A DNA stretch of 64,000 bases from a virus (IMGVR_UViG_2703718815_000003); one strand, 5' to 3'. Positions 3,927 through 56,551 are shown, counted from the stretch's first letter. Notes: generated by a model not told the origin, from the sequence alone. Numbers and translations are program-made.

Positions 3927-3938
3927 AAAGCAATCCTT

Positions 3939-3971
3939 AAACAACTTGTTTTCTCGTTGGTGTTATTATCG
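3939..3971 (-). promoter_or_regulatory. class I palindromic motif
   Basis: aaacaacttgttttctcgttggtgttattatcg. Confidence 0.5.
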
Positions 3972-4263: not shown

Positions 4264-4420
4264 CCCTCTCGCTATACCGGTACGCCGCCGTTCCTGAACC
4301 GGCATCGAGCCTTCTCCCGAAATCCACACAGGCAACTCGACCGTTTCCCTGAAAACCTCCAGCCGTTCCCCGAAGGCAACCCAGCCGTTTCTGTAGCGGG
4401 ATGCAACCTTTTCCCTGTAT
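4264..4420. repeat. cluster of degenerate direct repeats (G)CCGTT(T/C)CC
   Basis: At least 5 copies in about 150 bp; same unit as at 682-745. Confidence 0.5.
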
Positions 4421-4559
4421 GGACCGAAGGCTGACCGTAGGGGTTTTACGGGGGATAAAATCAGGAGTTGAATAAATACGAAAAAGGAGGCGACACCCCT
4501 CCTTCCCTCCCCACTTATACATACCTGGCTTCTTCGCTATACATGTTGTGTTTTATCTG

Positions 4560-5330: not shown

Positions 5331-5436
5331 AACCTATTGATATTTAAGGGTATGATTGCAGGTATGGAAGGGGAGTAGTGGCGATCAACGGATTCTTATA
5401 GAAAAGAATCAAATTGTGACCGCCATTATCAATGTT

Positions 5437-6677: not shown

Positions 6678-8711
6678 TTACTTAACTTGGTGGCCTGGTT
6701 TAGCACCAGCATCCGGGCTTAACAGGAAGATATCTTTTCCGCCAGGGCCAGCAGCCATCACCATGCCTTCGGAGATACCGAAGCGCATTTTACGCGGTGC
6801 CAGGTTAGCCACCATAATGGTGTGACGACCAATCAGTGCCTGTGGGTCTGGATAAGCAGAACGGATGCCTGAGAAGACATTGCGTTTTTCACCGCCGAGA
6901 TCCAGCGTCAGGCGCAGCAGTTTGTCAGAACCTTCAACAAACTCTGCGTTTTCGATCAGTGCCACGCGCAGGTCAACTTTGGCAAAGTCGTCAAAGGTGA
7001 TGGTTTCCTGAATCGGGTCGTCTGCCAGCGGGCCAGTAACTGGCGCGGCAGCTGCTTTCACTTCTTCTTTGGATGCTTCCACCAGTGCTTCAACCTGCTT
7101 CATATCGATGCGGTTATACAGTGCCTTGAACGGATTCACTTTATGGCCCAGCAGCGGTTGCTGGATACCATCCCAGGTCAGTTCTGTATTCAGGAATGCT
7201 TCTGCACGTTCAGTCAGTTTCGGCAGTACCGGCTTCAGGTACGTCATCAGCACGCGGAACAGGTTAATGCCCATAGAGCAAATCGCCTGCAGATCGGCAT
7301 CGCGTCCTTCCTGCTTCGCCACCACCCACGGAGCCTGTTCATCGACATAGCGGTTAGCCAGGTCAGCCAATGCCATGATTTCACGGATAGCTTTACCAAA
7401 TTCACGGCTTTCCCATGCTTCGCCAATCACTTCAGCGGCATCAGTAAAGGTTTTGTACAGTTGCGGGTCAGCCAGTTCGCTTGCCAGCACGCCGTCAAAA
7501 CGCTTGTTGATAAAGCCTGCATTACGGGAGGCCAGGTTAACCACTTTGTTCACGATATCGGCATTCACGCGCTGAACGAAATCCTCCAGGTTGAGATCGA
7601 TATCATCAATGCGCGAAGAGAGTTTCGCAGTGTAGTAGTAACGCAGGCTGTCAGCGTCAAAATGATTCAGCCAGGTGCTGGCTTTAATAAAGGTGCCGCG
7701 AGACTTGGACATCTTCGCGCCGTTCACCGTCACATAGCCGTGAACAAACAGGTTGGTCGGCTTGCGGAAGTTGCTGCCTTCCAGCATGGCAGGCCAGAAC
7801 AGGCTGTGGAAGTAAACAATATCTTTACCGATGAAGTGGTACAGCTCGGCGGTGGAGTCTTTCTTCCAGTATTCATCGAAGCTGGTGGTATCGCCGCGCT
7901 TGTCGCACAGATTCTTGAAGGAACCCATGTAGCCAATCGGCGCGTCCAGCCAGACGTAGAAATATTTGCCCGGCGCGTTCGGAATTTCAAAACCGAAGTA
8001 GGGCGCATCTCGGGAGATATCCCACTGTTGCAGGCCGGATTCAAACCATTCCTGCATTTTGTTCGCCACCTGCTCCTGCAACGCGCCGCTGCGGGTCCAT
8101 GCCTGCAACATTTCGCTGAAAGAAGGCAGATCAAAGAAGAAGTGTTCGGAATCACGCATTACCGGGGTAGCGCCAGAAACCACCGATTTCGGCTCGATCA
8201 ATTCAGTCGGGCTATATGTTGCGCCGCAGACTTCACAGTTATCGCCGTATTGATCTGGCGCTTTACATTTCGGGCAGGTGCCTTTTACAAAACGATCCGG
8301 CAGGAACATGCCTTTTTCCGGGTCGTACAACTGAGAGATAGTGCGGTTTTTAATAAAACCGTTCTCTTTCAGGCGAGTATAGATAAGCTCAGACAACTGA
8401 CGGTTCTCTTCGCTGTGCGTCGAGTGATAGTTGTCATAGCTGATGTTAAAGCCTGCGAAATCAGTCTGGTGTTCCTGACTCATTTCGCCAATCATCTGCT
8501 CCGGTGTGATACCAAGCTGCTGTGCTTTCAGCATGATCGGCGTACCGTGGGCATCGTCGGCACAGATGAAATTAACCTCGTGGCCGCGCATTCGCTGGTA
8601 ACGAACCCAGACATCAGCCTGGATGTGCTCCAGCATATGGCCGAGGTGGATTGAGCCGTTAGCGTACGGCAGCGCGCACGTCACCAGAATTTTCTTCGCG
8701 ACTTGGGTCAT
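6678..8711 (-). CDS. metG: methionyl-tRNA synthetase
   Basis: Track ORF trimmed to ATG ([26 protein letters not shown]...); KMSKS motif (GAKMSKSRG); C-terminal tRNA-binding domain; enterobacterial-like, about 677 aa. Confidence 0.95.
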
Positions 8712-8868
8712 AGTAGGCATTACTTCTTTGTAGTGAAAAGGGGCTTGATAGTAACAAAATGGCCTTATGTCTGCCATGTGATAACAGCATTTCTCATAAA
8801 TGATTAAATGTCGTAGCTGGAGTACACTACAAGGCGACAATTGCGCAAATTAAAATAAAGGAGACGGG

Positions 8869-9969
8869 ATGAGCGAGTCCAAATCGCCGGATGCCCTGAG
8901 AGCAATGGTAGCCGGTACGCTGGCTAATTTTCAGCACCCAACCCTGAAACACAACCTGACTACGCTTAAAGCGTTACACCATGTTGCGTTGATGGATGAC
9001 ACACTGCATGTCGAACTAATCATGCCTTTCGTGTGGAATAAGCCTTTTGAAGACCTGAAAGAGCAATGTAGTGGTGATCTGCTCCGTATCACTGGCGCAA
9101 AGGCTATTGACTGGAAGCTGTCGTACAACATTGCCACGCTTAAGCGCGTCAAAAACCAACCAGGCATTAATGGCGTTAAGAACATTATCGCCGTCAGCTC
9201 AGGCAAGGGCGGCGTGGGTAAATCCTCCACGGCGGTAAACCTGGCACTGGCGTTGGCTGCTGAAGGTGCGAAAGTTGGTATTTTGGATGCCGATATCTAT
9301 GGTCCATCAATTCCAACCATGCTGGGCGCGGAAAACCAACGTCCAACCTCACCTGACGGTACTCACATGGCACCTATCATGTCTCATGGCCTGGCAACCA
9401 ACTCTATTGGTTATCTGGTCACCGACGACAATGCAATGGTGTGGCGTGGACCGATGGCGAGCAAGGCGTTAATGCAGATGTTGCAGGAAACATTGTGGCC
9501 TGATCTGGACTATCTTGTTCTCGATATGCCGCCGGGCACTGGTGATATTCAGTTGACGCTGGCGCAGAACATTCCTGTAACTGGTGCTGTTGTGGTAACT
9601 ACGCCGCAAGACATCGCGCTGATCGATGCGAAGAAAGGCATTGTGATGTTCGAAAAAGTCGAAGTGCCGGTACTTGGTATCGTCGAAAACATGAGTGTGC
9701 ATATTTGCAGTAACTGCGGTCATCACGAGCCAATTTTTGGCACCGGTGGCGCAGAGAAACTGGCCGAGAAATACAACACGCAGTTGTTAGGCCAAATGCC
9801 ACTTCATATCTCTCTTCGTGAAGATCTGGATAACGGAACACCAACCGTTATTAGTCGTCCAGATAGTGAATTTACGGCTATTTATCGTGACCTCGCAGAT
9901 CGCGTTGCTGCCCAAATGTATTGGCAAGGTGAAGTAATACCTGGCGAAATCGCATTCCGCGCAGTGTGA
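8869..9969 (+). CDS. apbC: Mrp/ApbC family Fe-S cluster carrier ATPase
   Basis: 366 aa; Walker A SGKGGVGKS; CxxC near C-terminus; divergent from metG as in enterobacterial chromosomes. Confidence 0.9.
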   Translation: MSESKSPDALRAMVAGTLANFQHPTLKHNLTTLKALHHVALMDDTLHVELIMPFVWNKPFEDLKEQCSGDLLRITGAKAIDWKLSYNIATLKRVKNQPGINGVKNIIAVSSGKGGVGKSSTAVNLALALAAEGAKVGILDADIYGPSIPTMLGAENQRPTSPDGTHMAPIMSHGLATNSIGYLVTDDNAMVWRGPMASKALMQMLQETLWPDLDYLVLDMPPGTGDIQLTLAQNIPVTGAVVVTTPQDIALIDAKKGIVMFEKVEVPVLGIVENMSVHICSNCGHHEPIFGTGGAEKLAEKYNTQLLGQMPLHISLREDLDNGTPTVISRPDSEFTAIYRDLADRVAAQMYWQGEVIPGEIAFRAV

Positions 9970-9970
9970 T

Positions 9971-9996
9971 AAAAAGGCGGTGCATTGCACCGCCTA
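9971..9996. terminator. hairpin terminator between convergent genes
   Basis: ggcggtgca tt gcaccgcc stem flanked by A-run. Confidence 0.5.
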
Positions 9997-43148: not shown

Positions 43149-45488
43149 TTAATCTTCTAGTTCTTCTGTTGGTGATGTCTTCTCTCGTCGGTCATCTATC
43201 GTCTGTAAAGCCGCAATGATTTCAGCTAGTGGCTTCTCCCGATACATCTCGACGATCTGTGATTTGGTGTATTTCTTGTCACCAATTTCAACTCGCCCGC
43301 TGGCGTTCTTTGGCAGGTATCCTTCTTCCAGCATGTACTCGACGAGCGACTCGATAACGTCGAGGCCACGAGTAGGATCGAAGTAGAATTTCCAGGTGCA
43401 TTTGCCATACGGTGGTGCAACTTTGTTTTTGATGCACTCTGCGCCTACGTCCTGACCGATCTTCTCTTTCCCATCCTTCATCACCGATGCACCGAGACGG
43501 ATGCGCACAGAAGCGTAAAACTTCGGTGAATCGCCGCCTGGCGACGTAGTAGGGTCGCCAAACATTACACCGATTTTTGTGCGAACCTGATTCAAGAAGA
43601 TGATGCAGGCGTTGTATTTGCGTGCCCACAAAGCCAGAGTAGGGAAGTTCGCACTCGTCGCACGAGCCAGTGCCGTATTGTCGTTCATGTTCAGCTGATC
43701 TTTGTCTTTGGCAGTGCCTTCAGCCATCTTTTCGAACTTCTCGGCTTTGGAGTTCGGAACCATAGACGCAAGTGAGTCAGCCACGATACAGATAGGTGCT
43801 GATTCAGGAATAAGCTCTTCATCACGTACCAATTTAAGAATTGTGCCGATCAACTCTACAGAGTCTTCGAAGGTATCAGGCTGCTTGTATACCCACTGAC
43901 CGTCATCCTCATCTGCGTTCAGACCATTGGCGACAGCCAGGCCAACGTCAAAACTGTTTTCATGATCGAGGAATACCGCCAGACCATCTTGTTTTTGAGC
44001 GGAGATCATCGCTGCTGTTGCAAGGAATGTGTTGTGGCTGATAATCCCGTTAGACCAGAAAGAGTGTGTTTCCGGCATCGCTACGTCGAACGTTGGTGCT
44101 TCACCTTCCTCAATAGCCACGACTTCGTCGTAGAACAAGTTAGAGCCAATTACCGCTGCCAGTTGTGCAAACAGATGCTCGTTAAAACGATTCTTTCTGC
44201 CAATGAAGGAGACATAGATTTCTCGCAGTTTGTCTATTCCGACACGATCGCCGCGGCCAATAACGTGGTCTACCAGAGCGTAGTCTTCACGGGTGGTCTT
44301 GGTGAGCGACTCGTAGAGTGATTTCACTAAGCCGCTGATGTGCGGAACATAGCCTGAGTAAGTGCGGTCAAAACCAATGTCCCGTTTGGTTGCCACTGAT
44401 AAACGTGCCGGAGATTCGAAACCAATCGTTGACAGAAAAAGGTCGTAATTAGAGCCACTGAATGACAGCCGGTAATATGTATTTTCATAACCCGCGACGT
44501 GTTTTTCAGAGATAGTTGACGTAATCCCCAGATTCAGGAGCATGAGGCGAATTTGCTGTAGCAGCAGCCCACTCGCGCTCACAACCTCAATGCAGCGACC
44601 ATCATTGACGTGGCATTCCAGCTCAAAGTAGCCGCGAAGGAATGCAATTTGAGCCTCGCTATTGGCGCGACGCACACTCAACGGAACCTGCTTGCCAGCA
44701 GCTTTCTCATACTCCAGACCATATTCTTTAAAAAGCAGCGAACGCACCTCTTTGCTAAACAGCACATGGTCTTCCGAGCCGTTATGTTTTCTCGTAACTG
44801 GCATCTTGTCTGATACCAGCGAAATGAGGCGGTAGTACTCATCCTTGATGAAAGGATCTGTGTTAGAAAAATTCACTGAATTTTCAGAGGCCACGTATCC
44901 GTCAGCAATTAAATAGCCCATCAGTTTTGCGATATTGGCATCCAGGTGCTGATCGCCGAATTGATGTGTGCCAACCATTGAAGGAATCGTGTCGCCTACA
45001 CTGATTTTTTCAGCATGTCGCCAGACGACATTACCTAAGTCGTCAACCACACGGATTGGGTGACGGAACGTAGCCTCGATATAACCGCCTGATGCCAGCT
45101 TAATACGCTTGAATTTGCGACGGTTGTTCCATGTCAGGTGTGAGGTCTTCTCTATCACGCCATTTTCATTGATGAGTCCAACGTTATGCTCTACATCGCG
45201 AGTAGTGCATGTCGCTTTGTACCCTTCAATCTCAAACAACTCTTTCACTGTTACCATTCCACGCTCCGTCAGCAGCATGGTGTCTGCGGTAACACATTTC
45301 CCTGCACTTGGAGGACCGAATACTTCGACGATACGACCACATGGGAAGCCGCCATCGTAACGACCGGAAATAGCTTTGTTTAACGGTGGAAAGCCTGTAT
45401 CAATCCAATGAGTTACTTTCTGAATTTCGTCGTTGCTACCGATTTTCTTTTTCAGAGCAAGTGCCAGTGCGGATTTTCCTTTTGCCAT
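43149..45488 (-). CDS. recA: RecA-family recombinase interrupted by an intein (precursor 779 aa)
   Basis: N-extein ...GRIVEVFGPPSAGK then Cys; C-extein collinear with RecA (FLNQVRTKIGVMFGDPTTSPGGDSPKFYASVRI); exteins total about 357 aa. Confidence 0.85.
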   Translation of the reverse strand: MAKGKSALALALKKKIGSNDEIQKVTHWIDTGFPPLNKAISGRYDGGFPCGRIVEVFGPPSAGKCVTADTMLLTERGMVTVKELFEIEGYKATCTTRDVEHNVGLINENGVIEKTSHLTWNNRRKFKRIKLASGGYIEATFRHPIRVVDDLGNVVWRHAEKISVGDTIPSMVGTHQFGDQHLDANIAKLMGYLIADGYVASENSVNFSNTDPFIKDEYYRLISLVSDKMPVTRKHNGSEDHVLFSKEVRSLLFKEYGLEYEKAAGKQVPLSVRRANSEAQIAFLRGYFELECHVNDGRCIEVVSASGLLLQQIRLMLLNLGITSTISEKHVAGYENTYYRLSFSGSNYDLFLSTIGFESPARLSVATKRDIGFDRTYSGYVPHISGLVKSLYESLTKTTREDYALVDHVIGRGDRVGIDKLREIYVSFIGRKNRFNEHLFAQLAAVIGSNLFYDEVVAIEEGEAPTFDVAMPETHSFWSNGIISHNTFLATAAMISAQKQDGLAVFLDHENSFDVGLAVANGLNADEDDGQWVYKQPDTFEDSVELIGTILKLVRDEELIPESAPICIVADSLASMVPNSKAEKFEKMAEGTAKDKDQLNMNDNTALARATSANFPTLALWARKYNACIIFLNQVRTKIGVMFGDPTTSPGGDSPKFYASVRIRLGASVMKDGKEKIGQDVGAECIKNKVAPPYGKCTWKFYFDPTRGLDVIESLVEYMLEEGYLPKNASGRVEIGDKKYTKSQIVEMYREKPLAEIIAALQTIDDRREKTSPTEELED
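44031..45296 (-). mobile_element. intein with LAGLIDADG homing-endonuclease domain inserted in RecA P-loop
   Basis: About 422 aa between GK and T; starts Cys, ends His-Asn, +1 Thr; LMGYLIADGYV and FLRGYFELE motifs. Confidence 0.8.
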
Positions 45489-48339: not shown

Positions 48340-48464
48340 GTGCTTTCCTTTTTACTTATCATCTTATATTGATTATATCATTGTGATGATAAGGCAAGGA
48401 GTTCGAGGATAGGGGATATGAGGGGATAAGAGAAAACATGGCCATAGAGGCCATGTTTATTGGA

Positions 48465-51400
48465 TCACGACTTAATAGTTTCTGCTACGTCGGCTAATAT
48501 CGCTTCTAGTCGTTCTCCCTCTTCAGGTCTGAAGTAAAGAATGTTGGGGTTAAACCCGTAAAAGACTGTAACGTCAAGGTCTGGAAGATACTCCTTCCTA
48601 CCGACTAAATCGGATGGCTTGTTTTTGTTGTTAAACAATGCCGTTGCCCGACTGCCACACGTCAGCACATAGGTCGGACGTACCAGATTGATCTCTTCAC
48701 GCATAAAGTCGGTGAACTGGCCGATCTCGTCTTTGGTGTAGTCCTTTTCTTTGTCTTTCACCTTTTTGCAAACGCCTGTGACATAGAGATCGCCCATGCG
48801 CAAATCTCCAGCCGTCAACAGCTTGGCCTTAAAATCGTCGTATCCGTTCTCCATGAAGTAACCGGTTCGAGCATCATTGCCGTTTGCATTGTCCAGAATG
48901 ATCATGATTTTCGGCTTAATACCAATGCTGGGGCGGATTAGTTCATCACCTAAGCCCATTTCAGCCGCCATCCGTGTCATGAGTGCGTTAATTTCAGCCG
49001 ATCGTTTGGGGTTCATCTCAAACGGACGTGAGGCTTTAACTGCGTCTATGACAAGGTTTCCCATCAATTCTGCCTGGTCGCGGAGACGCTCTGGATCAGT
49101 TGCTGGCAGACTGCCAGGCTCGATGGCTGCAAATGCCCCTACTTTTTGCAGCGATTCGCGAACTCGACTATTACAGGCACGTTTCTCGACAGCTTCTTCG
49201 AATTGCGCAAGTGACTCGAATTTGCCGCCAACCTTTTCTCGCGCTCTCATGATGGCCTGGCAGCCATTCTCAGAACACCCCTTCACAGCAGAGAAGGGCG
49301 CATACAGCACCTGGCTGCCATCTTCAAGCGTGCGGATCTCGATTCGGTTTGATGACACGTTAACGTCTGGTGGCAATACGCGAATACCATAGGTCAGCGC
49401 ATCTTTAACCAGCCCCTGGTGTTTATCTTCGCCAAGAATAGTGAGAGCAGCAGCGAAAAACTCTGCGGGGTAATGAGTTTTCAACCACATAGATTGATAA
49501 CTGATTAAGGAGTAAGCAACAGAGTGTGATTTGTTGAACTGGTAGGCACCATTTTTTTCGAATGCGGTCCAGATCTCCTTCGCTTTCATCTCTGATAGCC
49601 CTGGATGTGACGCTGTAACACGTACTGCGTTTATAGGTAGTGTTGCTCCGTGCTCAAGTGCCTCTTCGACAGTTTTCAGAGTTCCGTCTTCGCATTTAAA
49701 ATGTTCCGCACGGTGAATGCGCTGCGTAGTGCCATCTTCCAGTTCAACGTCTATCCAGCCAGCTTGAGCCTGAACGATGAACTTCTCGCCCATGCTCTTC
49801 ATTTTTTCCATGTCCTTTTTGCCGATCGCTTTACGAACACCGTCAGCTTCAGCCATTGTGAAGCCAGCAAGCAATCGAGTCGCGTTCATCGTCTGTTCCT
49901 GATAGAGAATCACGCCATTTGTTTCTGCGGTAAGTTCATCAAGAACGGGGTGTAATGATTCCGGCGTCATAAAGCCTTTGGCGACAGAAACATAATCATC
50001 CAACATGCCTGACTGAATTGGTCCCGGCCGGAAGAGCGCAGTCGTAGCAACAACCGTTTTAAAGCTCATTGGCTCAATTCCACCACCTAAATCTTTAAGC
50101 AGCTTGCGCATTGGGCCTGATTCAAGCTGGAAAACACCTTGAGTGTACCCAGCAGCAAAACCATCCAGCACCTTGCGATCTTCAAGAGAAATGGCATCAA
50201 GATTGATATCTTCACCTGTGTTCTCTTTTATGTAGCGTTTTGCACTATCGAGCAAATCGAGAGTTGCCAGACCGAGTACGTCCAGCTTAATTAGGCCCAT
50301 AGCCTCGCAGTAACGCTTGTCAAATGCGATACAACGCGCGTCACCACGGCGTTCAACCGGTGTACGTTCTGTCAGAGGAACACCTGCTACGATCATCCCT
50401 GCCGCATGTCTACCAAAGCCACGCATAAGGCTTTGTAACTTGCAGGCTGCATTGAATGCATCAGGATATTTTGTTGCGTATTTGTCGAGACTTGCCAGTT
50501 GTTCGCGCAGTTCTTCCAATGGAAGGCTATCATCCTCGACGTTCTTCAGTTCTTTTGATACCGCCATATCTGCGGACTCCACACCATAAATACGAGCGGT
50601 GTCACGTAGTGCAGAGGCTGCGCCCAGATATGTGAAGTTCGGAATACCCGCAACGTAATCTTCGCCGTAGCGTTCATTCAGATACTCGATCACTTCATGG
50701 CGACGTGCCTGGCTGAAGTCCAAATCCGCATCCGGCAAGTCGAGACGCTCAGGGTTGATGAAACGTTCAAACAGAAGACCGTGACGGATTGGGTCGACGT
50801 TGGTTATGCCTATGCACCATGCCACCAAAGAGCCAGCAGAGGAACCACGACCAGGCCCAACGGGAATGCCAGTTTCACGACTATGATTCATCAGATCGCG
50901 CACCATCAGGAAGTAACCACAGAATCCCAGGCGAGTCAGCGTGTCCATTTCGTACTTTAGCCGCTCAACATAAACCCTGTTCTCAGAAGCCGGTGGTGTG
51001 TAGCCAAACTCTTTTGTGGTAAGACGTTTACGCAGCCCAGCAACGGCCAGTTTCATCAGAGTTGCAGGCTCGTCGTCTGCCATCTTTGGCAGTGCTGGTG
51101 GCAATTCATGCCAGCGCCATGTGCAGGCATCGATAATGGTATCCTGCGTTGTTGAGGCCATTGCAGCTGTTACCGGCACATCCATGCGAACGGAGAAGGC
51201 TTTAAGCGCCTCAAGGAGATGGCGGCGACCATTGACGGCGTTATCTCGCTGGTGGGGGATACGCAGACGATGCGGCTGGTCGATTTTGATGTTGTTCGTA
51301 ACCATGTGCGCAATGTCTTTAATGTCTGCATCGTCGATCGATTCGTAATAAGCGGGATAGAACGCCACTGGCTCTATTTTCAATGCGCTGGCGACTTTCA

Positions 51401-51983
51401 TCGCCCGGACGTTAATCTGGTCGTAGAATGGGGTAGGATGCGGATAAACCACACTATAGAAGTTGTCTTTTCCACCCGCTGTAATCAGTGTGCTTATAAT
51501 TTTTGCAAAATCGTTGCGTTGGAACACGCTACCGATGTCGGAAGTAAGCAGGATGATGTTGCCTTTGGCATATGTAGAAACCAACTGTTCGAGCGAGAGA
51601 CGCGGTACAAAGTAGAACTGTTCTCGTGTGTTGGCCGCCGTCATTAGTTCGCAGATGTCGCGATATCCTTGCTCATTTTTAATTAGAGCGGTAAACGAGT
51701 AGTTACGTCCCCGCTCTAATGATTCCATACATCTCATAGATTCTTTAGCAAGTTTAGCCCGGTGCTCGTATGTGGGATCATCAACAATGTTTAGTTTCAC
51801 ACCACAAATAACCGCCATGTCGTCACCAGCGGCACGTTGTAGTGGAATAACACTTGCAATATTCATGCTATCTGCTGAAATTACAGCGGTGTAGCCAGCT
51901 TCTCTGGCAATCTTCACCGCGTTTTCTGCTTTTAGAGCCGACTCCCCAAGTGAGAAGTCAGTTCGAACCATCAGTGCCTTCAT
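48465..51983 (-). CDS. dnaE: DnaE-type DNA polymerase III alpha subunit
   Basis: 1172 aa; N-terminal PHP domain; GFCGYFLMV...GPGRGSSAGSLVAW...LLFERFINPER and ILYQEQ...YQFNKSHS cores; about 60-aa insertion before YQFNKSHS. Confidence 0.9.
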   Translation of the reverse strand: MKALMVRTDFSLGESALKAENAVKIAREAGYTAVISADSMNIASVIPLQRAAGDDMAVICGVKLNIVDDPTYEHRAKLAKESMRCMESLERGRNYSFTALIKNEQGYRDICELMTAANTREQFYFVPRLSLEQLVSTYAKGNIILLTSDIGSVFQRNDFAKIISTLITAGGKDNFYSVVYPHPTPFYDQINVRAMKVASALKIEPVAFYPAYYESIDDADIKDIAHMVTNNIKIDQPHRLRIPHQRDNAVNGRRHLLEALKAFSVRMDVPVTAAMASTTQDTIIDACTWRWHELPPALPKMADDEPATLMKLAVAGLRKRLTTKEFGYTPPASENRVYVERLKYEMDTLTRLGFCGYFLMVRDLMNHSRETGIPVGPGRGSSAGSLVAWCIGITNVDPIRHGLLFERFINPERLDLPDADLDFSQARRHEVIEYLNERYGEDYVAGIPNFTYLGAASALRDTARIYGVESADMAVSKELKNVEDDSLPLEELREQLASLDKYATKYPDAFNAACKLQSLMRGFGRHAAGMIVAGVPLTERTPVERRGDARCIAFDKRYCEAMGLIKLDVLGLATLDLLDSAKRYIKENTGEDINLDAISLEDRKVLDGFAAGYTQGVFQLESGPMRKLLKDLGGGIEPMSFKTVVATTALFRPGPIQSGMLDDYVSVAKGFMTPESLHPVLDELTAETNGVILYQEQTMNATRLLAGFTMAEADGVRKAIGKKDMEKMKSMGEKFIVQAQAGWIDVELEDGTTQRIHRAEHFKCEDGTLKTVEEALEHGATLPINAVRVTASHPGLSEMKAKEIWTAFEKNGAYQFNKSHSVAYSLISYQSMWLKTHYPAEFFAAALTILGEDKHQGLVKDALTYGIRVLPPDVNVSSNRIEIRTLEDGSQVLYAPFSAVKGCSENGCQAIMRAREKVGGKFESLAQFEEAVEKRACNSRVRESLQKVGAFAAIEPGSLPATDPERLRDQAELMGNLVIDAVKASRPFEMNPKRSAEINALMTRMAAEMGLGDELIRPSIGIKPKIMIILDNANGNDARTGYFMENGYDDFKAKLLTAGDLRMGDLYVTGVCKKVKDKEKDYTKDEIGQFTDFMREEINLVRPTYVLTCGSRATALFNNKNKPSDLVGRKEYLPDLDVTVFYGFNPNILYFRPEEGERLEAILADVAETIKS

Positions 51984-52161
51984 GTGTTTTTACCTTTCTG
52001 GTTTTTTTGATTTTGTCATTGGGGAAGCCTACGAACTTCCCATACATCGAAATCGCAACTTCTTTTGCTGATTGGTGACAATCGGGCTTGTCTGGACACC
52101 CCAGACAAGTCTTGCCAGTTTCAGAAGCAGCGATAAGAGAGCCGAAACATCCTTTACGCAC
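51958..52161 (-). CDS. possible small Cys-rich protein (67 aa)
   Basis: Track ORF with non-ATG start; KTCLGCPDKPDC; 3' end overlaps dnaE start. Confidence 0.25.
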   Translation of the reverse strand: MRKGCFGSLIAASETGKTCLGCPDKPDCHQSAKEVAISMYGKFVGFPNDKIKKTRKVKTHEGTDGSN

Positions 52162-52163: not shown

Positions 52164-53399
52164 TTAACCAAATATTTTTTGAACAACTTCACGAGCCGCT
52201 TGCGCAGAAGCTGAAGGGAGTTTGTTAATGAAAGAACGCTCAATACCTGTCACAAAGTCGCCTCGCATCATTCCAATCTTGGCCGACAACAAAAGCTCAC
52301 GAGGCCCAATTGGCTGGCTGATAAGGTGTTCTTCATATCCATCGCGAACGATACCGGCAAACTTAACCATCTTTTCAGCGTATTCATCCACGATGCCGGC
52401 ATTTATCAACATGTTGATCTCTGCCTCTTTGCTCATGTATTTCACATTCGAAACGATGCCAAAACGTGAAAAGTTCGCGGCGTTCTGGATGTTTGTACCC
52501 TGGTACAAGCCGGTTTCATCACCAGAACCGTTTGTGTTGCCAGTGCCAATGAAAGCAAACCGTTCATGCGGAGTAATGCGACGCCATTCTGGAGTCGCCT
52601 CTTTGATGACCAACGCTTCACCTTCCAGCACTGGCTGATACACGCCAAGAATCTGTGGAAACGCAAAGTCGTATTCATCCGCGAGGTAAACCCAGCCATG
52701 CTTCATTGCGAGCGCAAGCAAGCCAGGCTCGAAATACGTAGAGCCATCACGCGCCAGAATTTGTCCCGTAACATGAGCCTCTTCCATTGATGCTGTATGT
52801 TGGGCACGGATTAACGGACGATTGAGCAAAGCACATAGTTGTGTAGGCAATGAAGATTTGCCTGTTCCTGCATGACCCCACAAATAGCCAGGTATGCCAA
52901 GTTCAAGCATCATGAAAATGTCTTTGATCAGTTCGAAGTCGCCATATACGTATCCCTTCTTCACTTCTGGAACGAACTCTGGAAACGGCGTATTGACGTT
53001 GACGCTAACCATGAGCGGCGTCCCACGTTTTGTTCCGAGTTCTTTCACCGTTACATTTAGCAGTTCGTGAGCTGCGACCAGATCTGTCTTGTACTCAACT
53101 GTGCCTGTGTAGCCTGGGCTACTGGTCACGCCAGATGATTTGGCCATTTCGCTTTTTTGCTCGGCACGTTTAGCTTGAATTGCATCAAGTGCCTTTTTCG
53201 ATAGCGTTGGCTCATCTGGAAACTGTGTTGTGTACATTTTCAGTACGGTGTCAGGATCGGCATCTTTTACTGACTCAGGAATGCCCTCGCAATTACCATT
53301 GGCTACATGGGACTTAAAATAGTGAAATGATTTTCCGCACCACTTGCAAACAAGGTAATCAGAAGGATTTTTTTCATTTTGCAGTGCAGTAGTAGTCAT
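52164..53399 (-). CDS. AAA+ ATPase, CobS/MoxR-like
   Basis: 411 aa; Walker A GHAGTGKSS; Walker B-like VYLADEYD; N-terminal CKWCGKSFHY Zn-finger-like. Confidence 0.6.
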   Translation of the reverse strand: MTTTALQNEKNPSDYLVCKWCGKSFHYFKSHVANGNCEGIPESVKDADPDTVLKMYTTQFPDEPTLSKKALDAIQAKRAEQKSEMAKSSGVTSSPGYTGTVEYKTDLVAAHELLNVTVKELGTKRGTPLMVSVNVNTPFPEFVPEVKKGYVYGDFELIKDIFMMLELGIPGYLWGHAGTGKSSLPTQLCALLNRPLIRAQHTASMEEAHVTGQILARDGSTYFEPGLLALAMKHGWVYLADEYDFAFPQILGVYQPVLEGEALVIKEATPEWRRITPHERFAFIGTGNTNGSGDETGLYQGTNIQNAANFSRFGIVSNVKYMSKEAEINMLINAGIVDEYAEKMVKFAGIVRDGYEEHLISQPIGPRELLLSAKIGMMRGDFVTGIERSFINKLPSASAQAAREVVQKIFG

Positions 53400-53455
53400 G
53401 CGTTTTTCCTTTGTTTTCTAATGAGCGTTCAACTTCTTATATAAATATATCATTA

Positions 53456-53479
53456 TCTATCGTAAGTGGTTACTTATCG
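53456..53479. promoter_or_regulatory. class II palindromic motif
   Basis: ctatcgtaagtggttacttatcg. Confidence 0.45.
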
Positions 53480-53494
53480 TTAAGGCTGTTTTGT

Positions 53495-55603
53495 TCACTT
53501 TAAAATGATACGAGATAGTTCAGTAACTACAGATGAACCAAGACTATCAACGCTCGTTACCAGGGCATGATTTGAGTAAAATCTCTCCGGTGCATCAGTC
53601 ATGATGCCAATTGCCATCAAATCAATGTCAGTCTGCGTTTCAATTTGCTTCGCAACTGAACGCAAATGAGCGTCAAAACCTCTCCCAACAGCCCACGGCG
53701 CGCCATCACTCAGAACAAGCATGATCTTCCTGTCCTCCAAGCGACCGGAAAATAACGATGCAAGGCTGGCTATGCTTTCACCATCCACGTTATTAAGAAG
53801 TGGGAATGTGTAGCCTACGCACCCCATACGTGAGCGAACTTCGCGAGAATTTGCTTTTTCATTCCAATTTTTGATGATAGGTAGCATTAAAGATTCAAAG
53901 CGAGAGAACTCATATTTGATAGCCTTAAGTTCTCCTGCTGCCATATGACTGCCAAATGTAGTGAAGCCGGTGATAATGTTGGGAACATTTATTCGATCAA
54001 GTGCATCGGCGATGGTATATGCACTTGCAAGAGCTAGTTTTATCGTTTCGCCACTCATTGAACCCGATAAATCAATCACTTGTTGAACACAGGCGTTAAC
54101 GGCTTTAGATTCTTCTTTTTTACGAAACACGCGATCATCATTCATTGTTAATCTGTAGATACTTGAACCATGAATGCGCCCCCGACGCTGGCCAGGTATA
54201 AACTGAACTCTGTTTCTGCTTGCTATTGCACGTTCCAGGTCTTTTGCCAGCGTCGACGAAACACCTGACGAAAGGTGCTTTTCAATATATTTGTCGAAGA
54301 GTTGGTTGCCTTCAGGAACGATGCGATAACGGCTGATTGGATATCCACCTAAATCAATATCGGAGAATGTTTTAATAAGCCGTTTGATATGGGCTTCTGC
54401 CTGATCAATCGAGCCGATGAAGTCGTATGAGCGATTGTATGGCCTGTATTCGCTTTTCGAGCTTTCTGTTAACTCGCTTTTAATCGTTTCGGATAGCGCA
54501 TCTTCTGTCATGCCTCCGACTTCATCTTCCATGCTATCCAACTCCTCTAAAGCCTCTTCCAGACTCATTTTTGACGGAGTTGGAATGTCTGAAGAGCCGT
54601 CTTCTGTCGTTTTTCTTTTTTCGTGGTCAGCGGTTAATGATTCTGACGCCGCGTTATCAGAAGCATCAGAATCTGATACCGCTTTATCATTTTCTGTATC
54701 ATCGAATATTGTTTCTGATGATTCAGGATTATCTGAATCATCACTGTCGTTATTATCATTTTTGTGCTTACTATGTGACTCTGATTTAATAGATTTGTGA
54801 TTATCTAACGATGAGGGTGTCTCATGATCTTCGTTGTCTTCATTGTTTTCTCCAGAGGCATCCGTCTGGTCAGCGTCTGAAGGATCGGAAGTTTTTCCCG
54901 GAGCTGACTCCTTACCTTTGCTTTCACTTTCAGTGTCTTTGAGGATCTTAGCTATGGTCGCAGCCACCTTTACACAATCCTCGGTGCAAGACATGTTACG
55001 CACGGCCACATCGATACCATGTTCTTTTAATAATGAAATTGGTTTCTCAATGACAGGCCAATATTCATCCATGAAATCTACGAACGGTGCTTGGCCATCC
55101 CAGGCTCTTACAACCGGACAGAGAAAGAAGTTTAGAACAAGCGCGCGCTGATCTTTGCCACAATAAGCAATAGCCTCTGAAGCCTTTGGTTTAAAGACTT
55201 TTTCGATTATAAGGCGCTGAGTTGCCATCAGATTACGTCCTGTTCCGTTAAAGACCTGACCCATTTTTCGCTCGATGAACACGTCTTCTAAGGCATTCCA
55301 TAGCGACCAGGAAGGAACGCGTCCTTTTTCTCTCATTTTGTTGGACACACGAATATCGGTAAACAAAATGTGAGCAACCTCATGATCGAGAAATCCGCGC
55401 ACAGCATTCATCAATGCCGGTGTTGCGTTATCCGGGATTGATGGGATGTTTACGAGAATTGGCTCTCCATCATCGTTATAGCGTACATAAGCGTCGTCCC
55501 CTCGTTCTGCAACAGGGATGTTTTTACCTGAAAGGAGAGCGACTACTCGTTTTACACTGTCACGGAAGTCCTGAACCTCTTTGATGGAACGTTTTTTAGA
55601 CAT
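53495..55603 (-). CDS. VWA-domain protein, CobT-like, with long acidic S/D/E-rich linker
   Basis: 702 aa; C-terminal MIDAS DLSGSMSG; about 150-aa acidic low-complexity middle region. Confidence 0.65.
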   Translation of the reverse strand: MSKKRSIKEVQDFRDSVKRVVALLSGKNIPVAERGDDAYVRYNDDGEPILVNIPSIPDNATPALMNAVRGFLDHEVAHILFTDIRVSNKMREKGRVPSWSLWNALEDVFIERKMGQVFNGTGRNLMATQRLIIEKVFKPKASEAIAYCGKDQRALVLNFFLCPVVRAWDGQAPFVDFMDEYWPVIEKPISLLKEHGIDVAVRNMSCTEDCVKVAATIAKILKDTESESKGKESAPGKTSDPSDADQTDASGENNEDNEDHETPSSLDNHKSIKSESHSKHKNDNNDSDDSDNPESSETIFDDTENDKAVSDSDASDNAASESLTADHEKRKTTEDGSSDIPTPSKMSLEEALEELDSMEDEVGGMTEDALSETIKSELTESSKSEYRPYNRSYDFIGSIDQAEAHIKRLIKTFSDIDLGGYPISRYRIVPEGNQLFDKYIEKHLSSGVSSTLAKDLERAIASRNRVQFIPGQRRGRIHGSSIYRLTMNDDRVFRKKEESKAVNACVQQVIDLSGSMSGETIKLALASAYTIADALDRINVPNIITGFTTFGSHMAAGELKAIKYEFSRFESLMLPIIKNWNEKANSREVRSRMGCVGYTFPLLNNVDGESIASLASLFSGRLEDRKIMLVLSDGAPWAVGRGFDAHLRSVAKQIETQTDIDLMAIGIMTDAPERFYSNHALVTSVDSLGSSVVTELSRIILK

Positions 55604-55638: not shown

Positions 55639-55701
55639 AGTGTGTTTAATGTAGCACTGCGCGAACAGGGAACTAAGCCATTCGCGCAGGGAGAAGAGGG
55701 G

Positions 55702-55914
55702 TTAACAGATTCTGACGGCTAAAGACCCGGAGCCGGTATTGAGAAGCGTGAAGCGTTTGTTGTTAAGTTCGAATATAAATCCAGTTGTGTCATTCACACC
55801 AACCTGAATCTGCTCATTCGGTAGATCGGTGAGGATGTCAGCTACACACTCATCAGCTAATTTCTGTACGTGTCCGATCTCAAGAGCGATTAGGCTGGAA
55901 ATAGTGGTGTTCAT
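55702..55914 (-). CDS. hypothetical protein (70 aa)
   Basis: Track ORF. Confidence 0.4.
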   Translation of the reverse strand: MNTTISSLIALEIGHVQKLADECVADILTDLPNEQIQVGVNDTTGFIFELNNKRFTLLNTGSGSLAVRIC

Positions 55915-56164: not shown

Positions 56165-56551
56165 ATGTCTGATAACAAGATTGAATTTATAGAAAGTCGC
56201 TACGCTGCTTTTATCGCAGGGTTGATTGAATCCTCACCTATGAGCCAGGCCCAGATAGCCAAAACAATTGGGTATAAAAACGCCAACAACCTTTCTTTAA
56301 TTAAAAGCGGCAAAATTCCTTTGCCTATCGATAAGGTTCGTCCGCTGGCGCTGGCACTGGGCATTGAGCCAAGTCGTCTTATGATGATGGTGCTGGAAGA
56401 ACGCCAACCCGAACTCGCAGCATTTTTATACAAAGAAGGCACTGCTCCTCTTAACGAGGACGAAAAACAGGTTCTTGCTGCATATAACGAGCGATTCGGT
56501 AAAGAGAAAGGCGCATCACAAAAGGTTGTTGAGGCCATAAAGTCTCTATGA
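56165..56551 (+). CDS. HTH (XRE-type) DNA-binding regulator
   Basis: 128 aa; MSQAQIAKTIGYKNANNLSLIKSGK helix-turn-helix; one of few plus-strand genes. Confidence 0.6.
   Translation: MSDNKIEFIESRYAAFIAGLIESSPMSQAQIAKTIGYKNANNLSLIKSGKIPLPIDKVRPLALALGIEPSRLMMMVLEERQPELAAFLYKEGTAPLNEDEKQVLAAYNERFGKEKGASQKVVEAIKSL

What the first reader, a model, noticed from the sequence alone, without database searches (positions are those of the whole stretch)
52164..55603. CobS/CobT-like AAA+ ATPase and VWA protein pair with extreme acidic linker
A MoxR/CobS-type AAA+ ATPase with an N-terminal zinc-finger-like motif is followed by a 702-aa protein ending in a VWA domain (MIDAS DLSGSMSG) and containing about 150 aa of Ser/Asp/Glu-rich low-complexity sequence. 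Such pairs act as chaperone-like metal-insertion or remodelling machines; their role in a replication module is unknown.
Basis: partly seen in the sequence, partly recalled or inferred. Interest (0 to 1): 0.4.

Follow-up and report, generated by a model that had tools for sequence, protein, structure and literature searches.

The report
Phage CobS–CobT-like ATPase/adaptor pair
Two adjacent genes of an E. coli phage-plasmid encode a common, already catalogued viral copy of the motor and adaptor subunits of the vitamin-B12 cobalt chelatase, but neither phage nor host has the third subunit, the adaptor keeps a protease-like zinc site that the bacterial enzyme has lost, and its real job is still unknown.

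Summary
Both ORFs are on the minus strand. A 702-aa CobT-like protein (53495-55603) is transcribed first, followed by a 411-aa CobS-like AAA+ ATPase (52164-53399), a 67-aa ORF and a DnaE polymerase.

The window is about 98% identical to Escherichia phage Cyrano (pLF82), an SSU5-type phage-plasmid. The pair occurs on plasmids in 219 of 5426 complete E. coli genomes and on 1005 PLSDB plasmids, so it is already known.

- **CobS:** it has every catalytic AAA+ residue of the solved Brucella CobS, plus a conserved N-terminal C2H2/C2HC zinc finger that the Brucella and Methylorubrum CobS compared here lack.
- **CobT:** it has all five MIDAS residues and a pore-"shaft" equivalent. Its acidic linker is typical of the family and milder than in 93% of relatives.
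the CobT N-domain has an invariant HExxH…E zincin motif that bacterial CobT has lost.

No CobN gene exists in the phage, and E. coli needs heterologous cobN for B12 synthesis. The phage RNR is class I, so cobalt chelation is unlikely here.

The pair lies in replication clusters of three phage lineages that use different replicative polymerases. My best reading is a CobN-independent, ATP-driven machine that remodels, and possibly cleaves, a protein client early in lytic replication. The client is unknown.

The parts
53495..55603 (-). cobT-like gene, 702 aa: zincin-like N-domain, acidic linker, shaft segment, VWA/MIDAS domain. It is the first large gene of the operon.
   Evidence: ORF. Pfam CobT 3.3e-26 and CobT_C 1.5e-82. 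phrog_1576 2e-299. PDB CobT 9uka_G 3.2e-17, and 7.4e-41 with a profile.
54941..55603 (-). CobT N-domain (res 1-221), M48/zincin-like fold.
55370..55387 (-). D73-H74-E75-V-A-H78: HExxH zinc-site motif.
   Evidence: Invariant in 10 and in 61 aligned homologues. Present in 127 of 127 full-length cluster representatives. Replaced by D-S-M-A-L-R in the two cellular CobT read here. Coordinates checked.
55271..55297 (-). N103-A-L-E106-D107-V-F-I-E111: candidate third-ligand 'Glu helix' motif.
   Evidence: N103, E106, D107 and E111 are invariant or nearly so. 127 of 127 representatives match E[DEQN]xx[ILVM]E. Cellular CobT keeps E..xxE as 'DAVEQARVE'.
54449..54940 (-). Disordered Ser/Asp/Glu-rich linker (res 222-385, 164 aa, net charge -35).
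   Evidence: Composition. Length and sequence vary among close relatives of 684-790 aa. No tandem DNA repeat of note. The equivalent linker of about 90 aa is disordered in the Brucella CobST structures.
54098..54214 (-). Equivalent of the CobT 'shaft' (res 464-502) that enters the CobS ring pore in the Brucella enzyme.
   Evidence: Pairwise mapping to Brucella Q373-R413. G471, R473, G475, R484, L485, D489 and R491-V-F-R494 are invariant in viral homologues. Shaft function is taken; it is inferred here, not shown.
53498..54130 (-). VWA domain (res 492-702).
   Evidence: Pfam CobT_C covers res 492-701. Aligned to Brucella CobT_C.
54059..54073 (-). MIDAS DxSxS (D511, S513, S515). The other two MIDAS residues are N605 and D633.
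   Evidence: The five Brucella MIDAS residues D422, S424, S426, N518 and D546 map to D511, S513, S515, N605 and D633. All five are invariant in alignment A2.
52164..53399 (-). cobS-like gene, 411 aa: zinc-finger N-extension plus a MoxR-class AAA+ module.
   Evidence: ORF. AAA_5 2.1e-15. phrog_249 2e-106. PDB CobS 1.8e-25. AF2 pLDDT 85. Foldseek NorQ/CbbQ TM 0.85.
52980..53399 (-). CobS N-terminal extension (res 1-140), absent from the 328-aa Brucella CobS. It contains the zinc finger, two helices and a disordered stretch (res 85-97).
   Evidence: The PDB alignment starts at query residue 141. The two cellular CobS examined here (Methylorubrum, Brucellaceae) carry Pfam CobS_N instead. Model features.
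53289..53348 (-). Zinc finger C18-x2-C21-x9-H31-x5-C37 (C2HC here; C2H2 in most relatives).
   Evidence: Conservation. Beta-beta-alpha element in the model. Coordinates checked.
52167..52979 (-). AAA+ module (res 141-411): Walker A 175-182, Walker B D241-E242, sensor-1 N288, Arg finger R312, sensor-2 R367, and a C-terminal E404..Q407-K408..F410-G411 helix.
   Evidence: Residue-by-residue alignment to Brucella CobS, read against the catalytic residues named. All are invariant in A1.
51958..52161 (-). Context: 67-aa four-Cys ORF packed between cobS and dnaE. It starts 2 nt after the cobS stop codon and overlaps the dnaE start by 26 nt.
   Evidence: phrog_6337 1.3e-45. Whether it belongs to the system is unknown.
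48465..51983 (-). Context: DnaE (Pol III alpha) with a C-terminal family-4 UDG-like domain, last gene of the same transcription unit.
   Evidence: Pfam PHP, DNA_pol3_alpha, finger and HHH_6. UDG_fam4 2.8e-7. The same neighbour is found in relatives with 45% identity.
48434..48458 (-). Context: terminator-like hairpin (10-bp stem) right after dnaE. It is the only one on the minus strand between here and the start of cobT at 55603.
   Evidence: This is a consensus match only.
55702..55914 (-). Context: 70-aa ORF upstream of cobT, divergent from the HTH repressor gene at 56165..56551 (+).
   Evidence: phrog_2627 8.8e-41. Repressor HTH_19 and the Cyrano annotation 'putative repressor'.

Best explanation
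The two genes encode the phage version of the CobS-CobT motor-adaptor module of ATP-driven (class I) chelatases. Here it works without the chelatase subunit CobN.

Architecture, by homology with the solved Brucella CobSTN complex:
- CobS forms a hexameric MoxR-class AAA+ ring.
- CobT plugs its conserved 'shaft' (res 464-502) into the ring pore.
- The CobT N-domain docks on the CobS small subdomain.
- A long disordered acidic linker leaves the VWA/MIDAS domain and the N-domain free to clamp a third protein between them.

In bacteria that third protein is CobN. In this phage-plasmid it must be a different client, still unidentified. Unlike bacterial CobT, the phage N-domain keeps a complete zincin site (HExxH plus a downstream Glu). 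I therefore propose that ATP-driven rotation of CobT remodels the client and that the client is probably also cleaved.

The genes open the operon that ends with the DnaE polymerase, next to the repressor gene. The machine is therefore most likely made at the very start of lytic development and serves genome replication or host takeover, not vitamin B12 synthesis.

What is shown: domain identities, catalytic and MIDAS residues, motif conservation, gene order, absence of CobN.
What is inferred: complex geometry (from the Brucella structures), expression timing, client remodelling and proteolysis.
For: Identity and integrity of the pair
- Searches place the two proteins in the CobS and CobT families.
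- Walker A, Walker B, sensor-1, Arg finger and sensor-2 align one-to-one with Brucella CobS and are invariant in homologues.
- The five MIDAS residues map exactly.
- The shaft segment and the CobS C-terminal helix that contacts CobT_N (E404, Q407, K408 = Brucella E308, Q311, R312), and CobT R69 and D73 (= Brucella R76 and D80), are conserved.

Not a cobalt chelatase here
- The fully annotated 108-kb relative Cyrano has no CobN-like gene.
- Its RNR is class I NrdAB, with ThyX and DHFR.
- Fang et al. supplied cobN/S/T from other bacteria when they built a de novo B12 pathway in E. coli (PMC6249242).
- NCBIfam equivalog scores are far below cut-off: 84.8 against 558.6, and 68.4 against 759.

Zincin site
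- D-H-E-x-x-H and E..xxE are kept in 127 of 127 representatives of clusters at 50% identity.
- They are also kept in cyanophage P-SSM4, Vibrio ICP2-like JSF27, Rhizobium and Roseobacter phage versions.
- Two cellular CobT have S-M-x-x-R instead.

Association with replication and early genes
- cobT-cobS lies directly upstream of DnaE in relatives at 35-45% identity.
- In a T4-like cyanophage it lies between gp46/47 and gp45/44/62.
- In a 49-kb podovirus it lies upstream of helicase and PolA, on the strand opposite the structural genes.
- It sits next to HTH repressor or integrase genes here and in relatives.
- There is no minus-strand terminator-like site between cobT and the end of dnaE.
Against: - No experiment on any viral CobST was found.
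- The HExxH motif is lost in Nickievirus (S-E-I-S-K) and in a Stenotrophomonas phage (R-E-V-S-T) that keep the same gene order. It is also lost in cellular CobT. Catalysis is therefore dispensable in some lineages and may not be the core function.
- Conserved position in replication clusters may only reflect shared expression timing or vertical inheritance.
- Promoter-like matches are no more frequent than in shuffled sequence, so the operon structure is inferred from gene packing only.
- No candidate client has been identified.
Confidence: 0.5

Rival explanations
1. Metallochaperone without proteolysis. Like NorQ/NorD (iron into nitric-oxide reductase) or CbbQ/CbbO, the pair inserts or exchanges a metal in a phage or host enzyme. 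Candidates are the di-iron site of the phage NrdB, or the metal site of the DnaE PHP domain encoded in the same operon. In this reading the HExxH site serves as a metal-binding or hand-over site rather than a protease.
For: The CobS model is closest in fold to NorQ in complex with the NorD VWA domain, and to CbbQ (TM 0.85). The MIDAS is complete. The bacterial homologue is itself a metal-insertion machine. The operon contains a PHP-domain polymerase, and the phage encodes NrdAB. Loss of HExxH in some lineages is easier to tolerate if the site is accessory.
Against: No single metalloenzyme partner is shared by the lineages compared: DnaE in the SSU5 type, gp43-type replication genes in the cyanophage, PolA and no annotated RNR in ICP2-like JSF27. 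Strict conservation of the catalytic Glu of HExxH in 127 of 127 representatives is what a hydrolase predicts; a mere metal-binding site needs only the two His.
Confidence: 0.25
2. Virion-assembly chaperone and protease. The MoxR-vWA pair with a metallopeptidase domain helps assemble the virion and processes structural proteins, as proposed for T4-like jumbo phages.
For: Iyer et al. 2021 made this proposal and cited the MoxR-vWA pair needed for tail development of Acidianus two-tailed virus (PMC7824862). No head-maturation protease is annotated in the Cyrano structural module.
Against: In every genome inspected the pair lies in the replication or early region, not the structural module. Here it is more than 15 kb from the structural module, with the lysis, partition/toxin-antitoxin and helicase-primase-ligase genes between them. 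In JSF27 it is on the strand opposite all structural genes. In P-SSM4 it lies among gp46/47, gp45 and gp44/62.
Confidence: 0.12
3. Auxiliary metabolic gene. The phage CobST joins a host CobN (or ChlH-like) subunit to raise cobalamin production and so feed B12-dependent nucleotide synthesis.
For: This is the published interpretation for viral cobST in haloarchaeal viruses and cyanophages (PMC8651126) and for ICP2 (PMC3037004). Homology to the genuine chelatase subunits is real. Some hosts of related phages, such as Rhizobium, have the aerobic pathway (my own knowledge).
Against: There is no CobN in the phage. In E. coli, a de novo B12 pathway has only been obtained by introducing heterologous genes, cobN/S/T among them. 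The phage RNR is class I, not B12-dependent. Equivalog scores are far below cut-off. The pair occurs on 1005 plasmids, mostly of Klebsiella, Escherichia, Acinetobacter, Enterobacter, Yersinia and Salmonella, genera that to my knowledge lack the CobN-dependent aerobic route (not tested here). The intact HExxH and the zinc finger have no role in the chelatase model.
Confidence: 0.07
4. Inactive relic or selfish passenger with no function for the phage.
For: None beyond the absence of a known function.
Against: Catalytic, MIDAS, shaft and zincin residues are invariant over more than 1000 clusters at 50% identity, and gene order is conserved across distant phages. The pair is retained in 219 E. 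coli plasmids at 97-100% identity.
Confidence: 0.03

Closest known systems
Aerobic cobaltochelatase CobS/CobT of Brucella melitensis (CobSTN; PDB 9UJV, 9UKA, 21VT, 21VU; bioRxiv 10.64898/2026.07.21.739949)
   Same: Homologous AAA+ motor with the same Walker A/B, sensor-1, Arg-finger and sensor-2 residues. Homologous adaptor with an M48-like N-domain, a disordered acidic linker, a shaft segment and a VWA domain with the same five MIDAS residues.
   Different: There is no CobN partner. Gene order is cobT then cobS, whereas the cellular order is cobS then cobT. CobS has a 140-aa zinc-finger extension instead of CobS_N. CobT keeps HExxH where the cellular protein has S-M-x-x-R. The shaft is basic rather than acidic or neutral. 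Identity is only about 25-30%, and NCBIfam equivalog cut-offs are missed by a wide margin.
Viral cobST gene pair (cyanomyoviruses, haloarchaeal tailed viruses, Vibrio phage ICP2; PHROG 249 and 1576)
   Same: Same two-gene cluster and the same families. HExxH is also present in P-SSM4 'peptidase' and JSF27 CobT.
   Different: Cyanophage CobS aligns only from residue 115-142 onward at 28-31% identity, so the part of the N-extension that carries the zinc finger lies outside the match. The published functional guess, use of host CobN, cannot apply in E. coli.
MoxR AAA+ / vWA-metallopeptidase pair of T4-like jumbo phages (Iyer et al. 2021, PMC7824862)
   Same: The architecture described there is the same: a MoxR-class ATPase plus a vWA protein with an N-terminal metallopeptidase domain.
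   Different: Those authors propose virion assembly. Here and in other lineages the pair sits in replication or early clusters. I did not test directly whether the jumbo-phage proteins they cite belong to the same family.
NorQ/NorD and CbbQ/CbbO MoxR-VWA chaperones
   Same: Closest solved folds for the ATPase (TM 0.85). A VWA/MIDAS partner docks on the hexamer and drives metal insertion or remodelling of a client enzyme.
   Different: Sequence identity is only 16-22%. To my knowledge NorD and CbbO carry no zincin N-domain, and NorQ no zinc finger (not tested here). Their clients are encoded next to them, whereas no client is evident here.
Mg-chelatase BchI/BchD (ChlI/ChlD)
   Same: It is the other class I chelatase. 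To my knowledge its D subunit also links an N-terminal domain to a C-terminal VWA/MIDAS domain through an acidic, proline-rich linker, so acidic linkers may be a general trait of chelatase adaptors (not tested here).
   Different: To my knowledge the BchD N-domain is an inactive AAA+ module, not a zincin, and BchI belongs to a different AAA+ subgroup from CobS/MoxR.

Membership tests
Cobaltochelatase motor subunit CobS (TIGR01650 equivalog) | MoxR-class AAA+ module with Walker A, Walker B, sensor-1, Arg finger and sensor-2 | tested here: met
   G175-S182, D241-E242, N288, R312 and R367 align with Brucella G71-S78, D141-E142, N186, R210 and R271. Fold TM is 0.85 to NorQ/CbbQ.
Cobaltochelatase motor subunit CobS (TIGR01650 equivalog) | Score above the curated equivalog cut-off | tested here: not met
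   84.8 bits against a cut-off of 558.55.
Cobaltochelatase motor subunit CobS (TIGR01650 equivalog) | CobS_N (PF12556) N-terminal segment | tested here: not met
   Only AAA_5 is found. Cellular CobS in L007 and L008 have CobS_N. Here a zinc-finger extension takes its place.
Cobaltochelatase CobNST holoenzyme | A CobN (large, corrin-binding) subunit available in the same genome or host | tested here: not met
   No CobN-like gene exists among the 126 features of the 98%-identical phage Cyrano. For the host I rely on the literature: the cobN/S/T genes in the engineered E. coli B12 strains came from other bacteria (PMC6249242). I did not scan E. coli genomes for CobN myself.
Cobaltochelatase CobNST holoenzyme | ATP-dependent insertion of Co2+ into hydrogenobyrinic acid a,c-diamide | not testable with these tools
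   This needs a biochemical assay or complementation of the engineered pathway.
Cobaltochelatase adaptor subunit CobT (Pfam CobT + CobT_C; TIGR01651) | Pfam CobT_C and CobT N-domain above gathering score | tested here: met
   277 bits against 21, and 92.9 bits against 26.1.
Cobaltochelatase adaptor subunit CobT (Pfam CobT + CobT_C; TIGR01651) | Score above the curated equivalog cut-off | tested here: not met
   68.4 bits against a cut-off of 759.05.
Cobaltochelatase adaptor subunit CobT (Pfam CobT + CobT_C; TIGR01651) | Complete MIDAS (D-x-S-x-S plus N and D) | tested here: met
   D511, S513, S515, N605 and D633 correspond to Brucella D422, S424, S426, N518 and D546. All are invariant.
Cobaltochelatase adaptor subunit CobT (Pfam CobT + CobT_C; TIGR01651) | Disordered acidic linker between the N- and C-domains | tested here: met
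   Res 222-385, 30% D+E, net charge -35. The feature is family-wide: the median is 45% D+E in the most acidic 120 aa.
Cobaltochelatase adaptor subunit CobT (Pfam CobT + CobT_C; TIGR01651) | Pore-inserting shaft preceding the VWA domain | tested here: inconclusive
   An aligned and strongly conserved segment exists (res 464-502), but its composition differs (basic). Pore insertion cannot be tested here.
MoxR-VWA chaperone systems | MoxR-class ATPase encoded next to a VWA/MIDAS protein | tested here: met
   The genes are adjacent, separated by a 95-nt gap. Folds and motifs as above.
Zincin (gluzincin, M48-like) metallopeptidase | HExxH motif on a helix following a small beta-sheet | tested here: met
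   H74-E75-x-x-H78 lies on helix 62-81, after strands 31-33, 39-42 and 48-53. The motif is present in 127 of 127 representatives.
Zincin (gluzincin, M48-like) metallopeptidase | Third metal ligand (Glu) on a downstream helix | tested here: inconclusive
   Invariant E106 and E111 lie on helix 97-117.
Zincin (gluzincin, M48-like) metallopeptidase | Overall fold similarity to solved zincins | tested here: inconclusive
Zincin (gluzincin, M48-like) metallopeptidase | Peptidase activity | not testable with these tools
   This needs purified protein and a substrate.
Known anti-phage defence systems (PADLOC) | Match to a defence-system protein model | tested here: not met
   There is no hit for CobS. 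For CobT there is only a weak DrmE match (E 6.8e-4) that starts in the low-complexity linker and runs into the VWA domain (res 340-533).

The most novel reading that the evidence does not exclude
The viral CobT-like protein is a genuine ATP-coupled zinc protease-adaptor. The CobS ring turns it, the VWA/MIDAS domain and the zincin cleft grip a specific phage or host protein, perhaps a replisome or takeover factor, and the client is cut at the onset of lytic replication. On this reading the bacterial aerobic cobaltochelatase CobST is a catalytically dead descendant of such a machine, in which CobN now occupies the former substrate cleft. In the Brucella structure CobN contacts the three-stranded sheet of CobT_N.
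Probability: 0.25. Interest if true: 0.7.

Novelty: already known. Interest (0 to 1): 0.35.

Why it matters
The pair is carried by about 4% of complete E. coli genomes and by about a thousand sequenced plasmids of clinically important genera, including Yersinia plasmids of about 100 kb. It is also a core gene pair of marine cyanophages. Even so, its function has never been tested, and the usual label ("cobalamin/porphyrin biosynthesis") cannot be right in hosts without CobN.

One close relative, PhiR41_1, is recorded with E. coli K-12 MG1655 as host. The question is therefore directly testable by genetics.

Three outcomes would follow from an answer:
- It would correct a widespread annotation. 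Cyrano's record even names the two genes after unrelated Salmonella enzymes.
- It could reveal a new early-infection function.
- It would shed light on how the three-subunit chelatases evolved.

Tried and rejected

2. The search for related loci with the CobS alignment returned only near-identical enterobacterial loci, which were useless for diversity. I used tblastn on annotated phages instead.

3. My third homologue search, with the Brucella CobT C-domain, listed only truncated proteins. The two loci I opened have a frame change between the N-domain and the linker. I read the N-domains from the other frame. I treat the frame changes as probable assembly errors, because they lie at different GC-rich sites.

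4. Defence-system hypothesis: PADLOC gave no meaningful hit.

5. Linker expansion by DNA repeats: only a trivial 9-nt, 2.6-copy match was found.

6. Promoter and terminator scans were no better than shuffled sequence. Weak inverted repeats lie in the repressor-operon intergenic region. I draw no operator claim from them.

7. RNR as a universal client is rejected, because ICP2-like JSF27 has the pair but no annotated RNR.

8. A role as a clamp loader or helicase for DnaE is rejected. The ATPase is MoxR-class and paired with a VWA protein.

9. Literature searches for CobT with HEXXH, and for cyanophage cobS expression class, gave nothing useful.

Full report
**What is there**

The two ORFs are real and lie at the stated coordinates, both on the minus strand: a 702-aa protein at 53495..55603 and a 411-aa protein at 52164..53399. 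In the direction of transcription the order is:
- a 70-aa ORF (55702..55914);
- the 702-aa gene;
- a 95-nt gap;
- the 411-aa gene;
- a 67-aa four-Cys ORF that starts 2 nt after the stop codon of the 411-aa gene;
- a 1172-aa DnaE whose start overlaps the 67-aa ORF by 26 nt.

The only terminator-like hairpin on this strand between the start of the 702-aa gene and the end of dnaE follows dnaE, at 48458-48434. Upstream, the operon diverges from an HTH repressor gene (56165..56551, plus strand) and an integrase.

**Where the window comes from**

The 3.4-kb stretch is 97.4-98.1% identical to Escherichia phage Cyrano, PhiR41_1 and two CMS-2020a records. Cyrano is pLF82, the SSU5-like phage-plasmid of E. 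coli LF82. It is kept at about 5.5 copies per cell and induced 39-fold by ciprofloxacin (PMC9928086).

The pair is found in 219 of 5426 complete E. coli genomes, always on plasmids of roughly 95-155 kb (most listed are 105-116 kb). PGAP names the genes "cobaltochelatase CobT-related protein | AAA family ATPase". The CobT N-domain is found on 1005 PLSDB plasmids: Klebsiella 348, Escherichia 229, Acinetobacter 154, Enterobacter 92, Yersinia 63, Salmonella 49. The feature is therefore ordinary and already catalogued.

The Cyrano record itself calls the two genes "cobalamin synthetase" and "dimethylbenzimidazole phosphoribosyltransferase". To my knowledge those are the unrelated Salmonella enzymes that share the names CobS and CobT, so this looks like a name-collision error.

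**The ATPase**

- Pfam AAA_5 scores 2.1e-15 and phrog_249 scores 2e-106.
- The best solved relative by sequence is Brucella CobS (1.8e-25), followed by midasin, CbbQ and NorQ.
- Read against the residues named in the Brucella CobSTN study (bioRxiv 10.64898/2026.07.21.739949), the alignment matches every catalytic element:

| Element | Window | Brucella |
|---|---|---|
| Walker A | G175-S182 | G71-S78 |
| Walker B | D241-E242 | D141-E142 |
| Sensor-1 | N288 | N186 |
| Arg finger | R312 | R210 |
| Sensor-2 | R367 | R271 |

- All of these are invariant in 19 homologues down to 45% identity.
- An AF2 model (pLDDT 85) superposes on NorQ and CbbQ with TM 0.85.
- The first 140 residues have no counterpart in the 328-aa Brucella CobS; the Methylorubrum and Brucellaceae CobS I examined carry Pfam CobS_N instead. 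This extension holds the motif C18-x2-C21-x9-H31-x5-C37.
- The strict motif is present in 96 of 113 full-length homologues, mostly as C2H2. It is modelled as a beta-beta-alpha element followed by two helices and a disordered stretch.
- Cyanophage CobS aligns only from residue 115-142 onward. The zinc finger is degenerate in a Rhizobium phage. It is therefore a lineage feature, not a universal one.

**The VWA protein**

- Pfam CobT_C scores 1.5e-82 (res 492-701), Pfam CobT scores 3.3e-26 (res 9-292), and phrog_1576 scores 2e-299.
- The five MIDAS residues of Brucella CobT (D422, S424, S426, N518, D546) map onto D511, S513, S515, N605 and D633. All are invariant.
- The Brucella "shaft" (Q373-R413), which enters the CobS pore when nucleotide binds, corresponds to res 464-502. 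This segment is strongly conserved in viral homologues (G471, R473, G475, R484, L485, D489, R491-V-F-R494). It is basic rather than acidic.
- The linker (res 222-385) has 30% D+E, 27% S+T and a net charge of -35.
- Such a linker is a family trait. In 127 representatives the most acidic 120-aa stretch has a median of 45% D+E, and 93% of them exceed this window's value of 32.5%. The equivalent Brucella linker is disordered. "Extreme" is therefore not warranted.

The N-domain carries D73-H74-E75-V-A-H78, followed 25 residues later by N103-x-x-E106-D107-x-x-x-E111.
- These residues are invariant in alignments of 10 and 61 homologues.
- A phmmer scan of 1.84 billion cluster representatives found 1042 proteins with this domain. 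All 127 full-length proteins among the best 150 keep HExxH and the downstream E..xxE, and 125 keep the MIDAS motif.
- Two cellular CobT genes, from Methylorubrum and a Brucellaceae genome, read R-G-x-x-D-S-M-A-L-R at the same place. They lack both His and the catalytic Glu but keep "DAVEQARVE".
- The AF2 model of the N-domain is confident (pLDDT 93.3) and has the zincin layout: a helix, a three-stranded sheet, the HExxH helix (62-81) and a Glu-bearing helix (97-117).
- Independently, the crystal structure of Brucella CobT_N is reported to resemble the peptidase M48C domain.

The idea is not new in outline. Iyer et al. described a MoxR-vWA pair with an N-terminal metallopeptidase domain in T4-like jumbo phages (PMC7824862), and cyanophage genomes annotate the gene as "peptidase".

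The motif is intact in P-SSM4 (HEVGH), ICP2-like JSF27 (HECYH), a Rhizobium phage (HEVGH) and Roseobacter phage CRP-810 (HEAGH). It is lost in Nickievirus phiK7B1 (SEISK) and Stenotrophomonas phage BUCTxx99 (REVST).

**Is it a cobalt chelatase here?**

Probably not, for four reasons:
- The fully annotated Cyrano genome has no CobN-like gene. Its nucleotide genes are class I NrdAB, ThyX and DHFR, none of which to my knowledge needs B12.
- A de novo B12 pathway in E. coli has only been obtained by supplying heterologous genes, including cobN, cobS and cobT from other bacteria (PMC6249242).
- Both proteins miss the NCBIfam equivalog cut-offs by a wide margin: 84.8 against 558.6, and 68.4 against 759.
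- Gene order is inverted relative to cellular cobS-cobT.

The published guess that viral CobST hijacks host CobN (PMC8651126; similarly PMC3037004) cannot apply to this host.

**Genomic context**

- cobT-cobS sits directly upstream of a DnaE-UDG fusion, then gp32, a 5'-3' exonuclease and RecA, in marine contigs of about 100 kb and an Ectothiorhodospira prophage whose CobS is only 45-47% identical.
- The same holds in Pseudomonas, Rhizobium and Stenotrophomonas phages of 109-116 kb.
- In these relatives cobT again follows HTH or integrase genes, as it does here.
- In the T4-like cyanophage P-SSM4 the pair lies between gp46/47 and gp45/gp44/gp62.
- In the 49-kb podovirus JSF27 it precedes the helicase and PolA, on the strand opposite all structural genes, and no RNR is annotated.

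Three phage lineages that use different replicative polymerases thus keep the pair in the replication or early cluster and none keeps it in the structural module. This weighs against the virion-assembly proposal and against any single phage metalloenzyme as a universal client. Shared timing of expression would give the same pattern.

**How it most likely works**

Shown:
- an intact AAA+ motor;
- an adaptor with a complete MIDAS, a conserved shaft-equivalent and a disordered linker;
- an N-domain of zincin type with an intact motif;
- contact residues of the Brucella CobS_S-CobT_N interface that are conserved: CobS E404, Q407, K408 = Brucella E308, Q311, R312; CobT R69, D73 = Brucella R76, D80.

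Inferred from the Brucella structures:
- a CobS hexamer with the CobT shaft in its pore;
- CobT_N on the small subdomain;
- a third protein held between CobT_N and the MIDAS face, where CobN sits in bacteria.

My proposal is that in the phage a protein client takes that place, is remodelled by ATP-driven rotation of CobT, and is probably cleaved at the HExxH site. This would happen at the start of lytic development, when the operon next to the repressor is switched on.

My confidence in each step:

| Claim | Confidence |
|---|---|
| CobST-type complex | about 0.9 |
| Independence from B12 synthesis in this host | about 0.8 |
| Early or replication-linked role | about 0.45 |
| Actual proteolysis | about 0.4 |
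| Best explanation overall | 0.5 |

The main rival (0.25) is a NorQD-like metallochaperone role without cleavage. Loss of HExxH in two phage lineages makes that rival plausible.

**Verdict**

- The feature is already known and very common.
- The unresolved function, the contrast between the intact viral zincin site and the dead cellular one, and the availability of a relative recorded on E. coli K-12 make it a modestly interesting, directly testable problem. It is not a surprise.
- Interest score: 0.35.

Noticed in passing
window 48465-51983 (-), C-terminal part (res ~1027-1171): The DnaE polymerase is fused to a family-4 uracil-DNA-glycosylase-like domain (TIGR00758 2.8e-7; phrog_13175). The same PHP-Pol3alpha-HHH-UDG architecture recurs in distant relatives L002, L004 and L006.
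   Followed up: partly
window 43149-45488 (-): The 779-aa RecA is interrupted by an intein carrying a LAGLIDADG endonuclease (Intein_splicing res 73-486, LAGLIDADG_3 res 279-356). The RecA of the Ectothiorhodospira prophage relative (L006) also has an intein.
   Followed up: partly
L001 (OV696614.1) 14999-18438; window 52164-55603: The public Cyrano record names the two genes 'cobalamin synthetase' and 'dimethylbenzimidazole phosphoribosyltransferase'. To my knowledge these are the unrelated Salmonella CobS and CobT enzymes, so this looks like an annotation error caused by a name collision.
   Followed up: yes
window 51958-52161 (-): A 67-aa ORF with four Cys (phrog_6337) is wedged between cobS and dnaE with overlapping or abutting codons. 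In marine, Rhizobium and Ectothiorhodospira relatives this slot holds a sigma-70 region-2-like gene of about 210 aa plus an ORF of about 190 aa.
   Followed up: partly
window 55657-55689 (-): A 9-bp-stem hairpin (CTGCGCGAA, 15-nt loop, TTCGCGCAG) lies between the 70-aa ORF and cobT. It has no T-run. It could be an RNA processing or attenuation element.
   Followed up: no
window 48340-48464 versus L001 9615-10463: The window lacks the hicA/hicB toxin-antitoxin cassette that Cyrano carries between dnaE and the uvsY-like gene.
   Followed up: partly
L092 (MT354569.1) 6847-8931 and L096 (OR529408.1) 7992-9977: The CobT-like proteins of Pseudomonas phage phiK7B1 and Stenotrophomonas phage BUCTxx99 have lost both His of HExxH (SEISK, REVST). 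They keep the MIDAS motif, the acidic linker and the cobT-cobS-dnaE order.
   Followed up: partly
L092 (MT354569.1) about 9000-9120: The annotated start of phiK7B1_059 (CobS) lies too far downstream. The upstream in-frame sequence encodes the zinc finger (KCEICGEEVHSIANHLKTAH).
   Followed up: partly
L007 3400-4100 and L008 3450-4100: In two bacterial assemblies (GCA_029504535.1, GCA_012103055.1) cobT changes reading frame between the N-domain and the acidic linker, at different GC-rich sites. These are probably assembly errors. All 120 best hits of that search were truncated proteins.
   Followed up: partly
L097 (OR671924.1) 1827-5645: In Roseobacter phage CRP-810 the order is cobS then cobT, and CobS is 617 aa with a long unrelated N-terminal region.
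   Followed up: no
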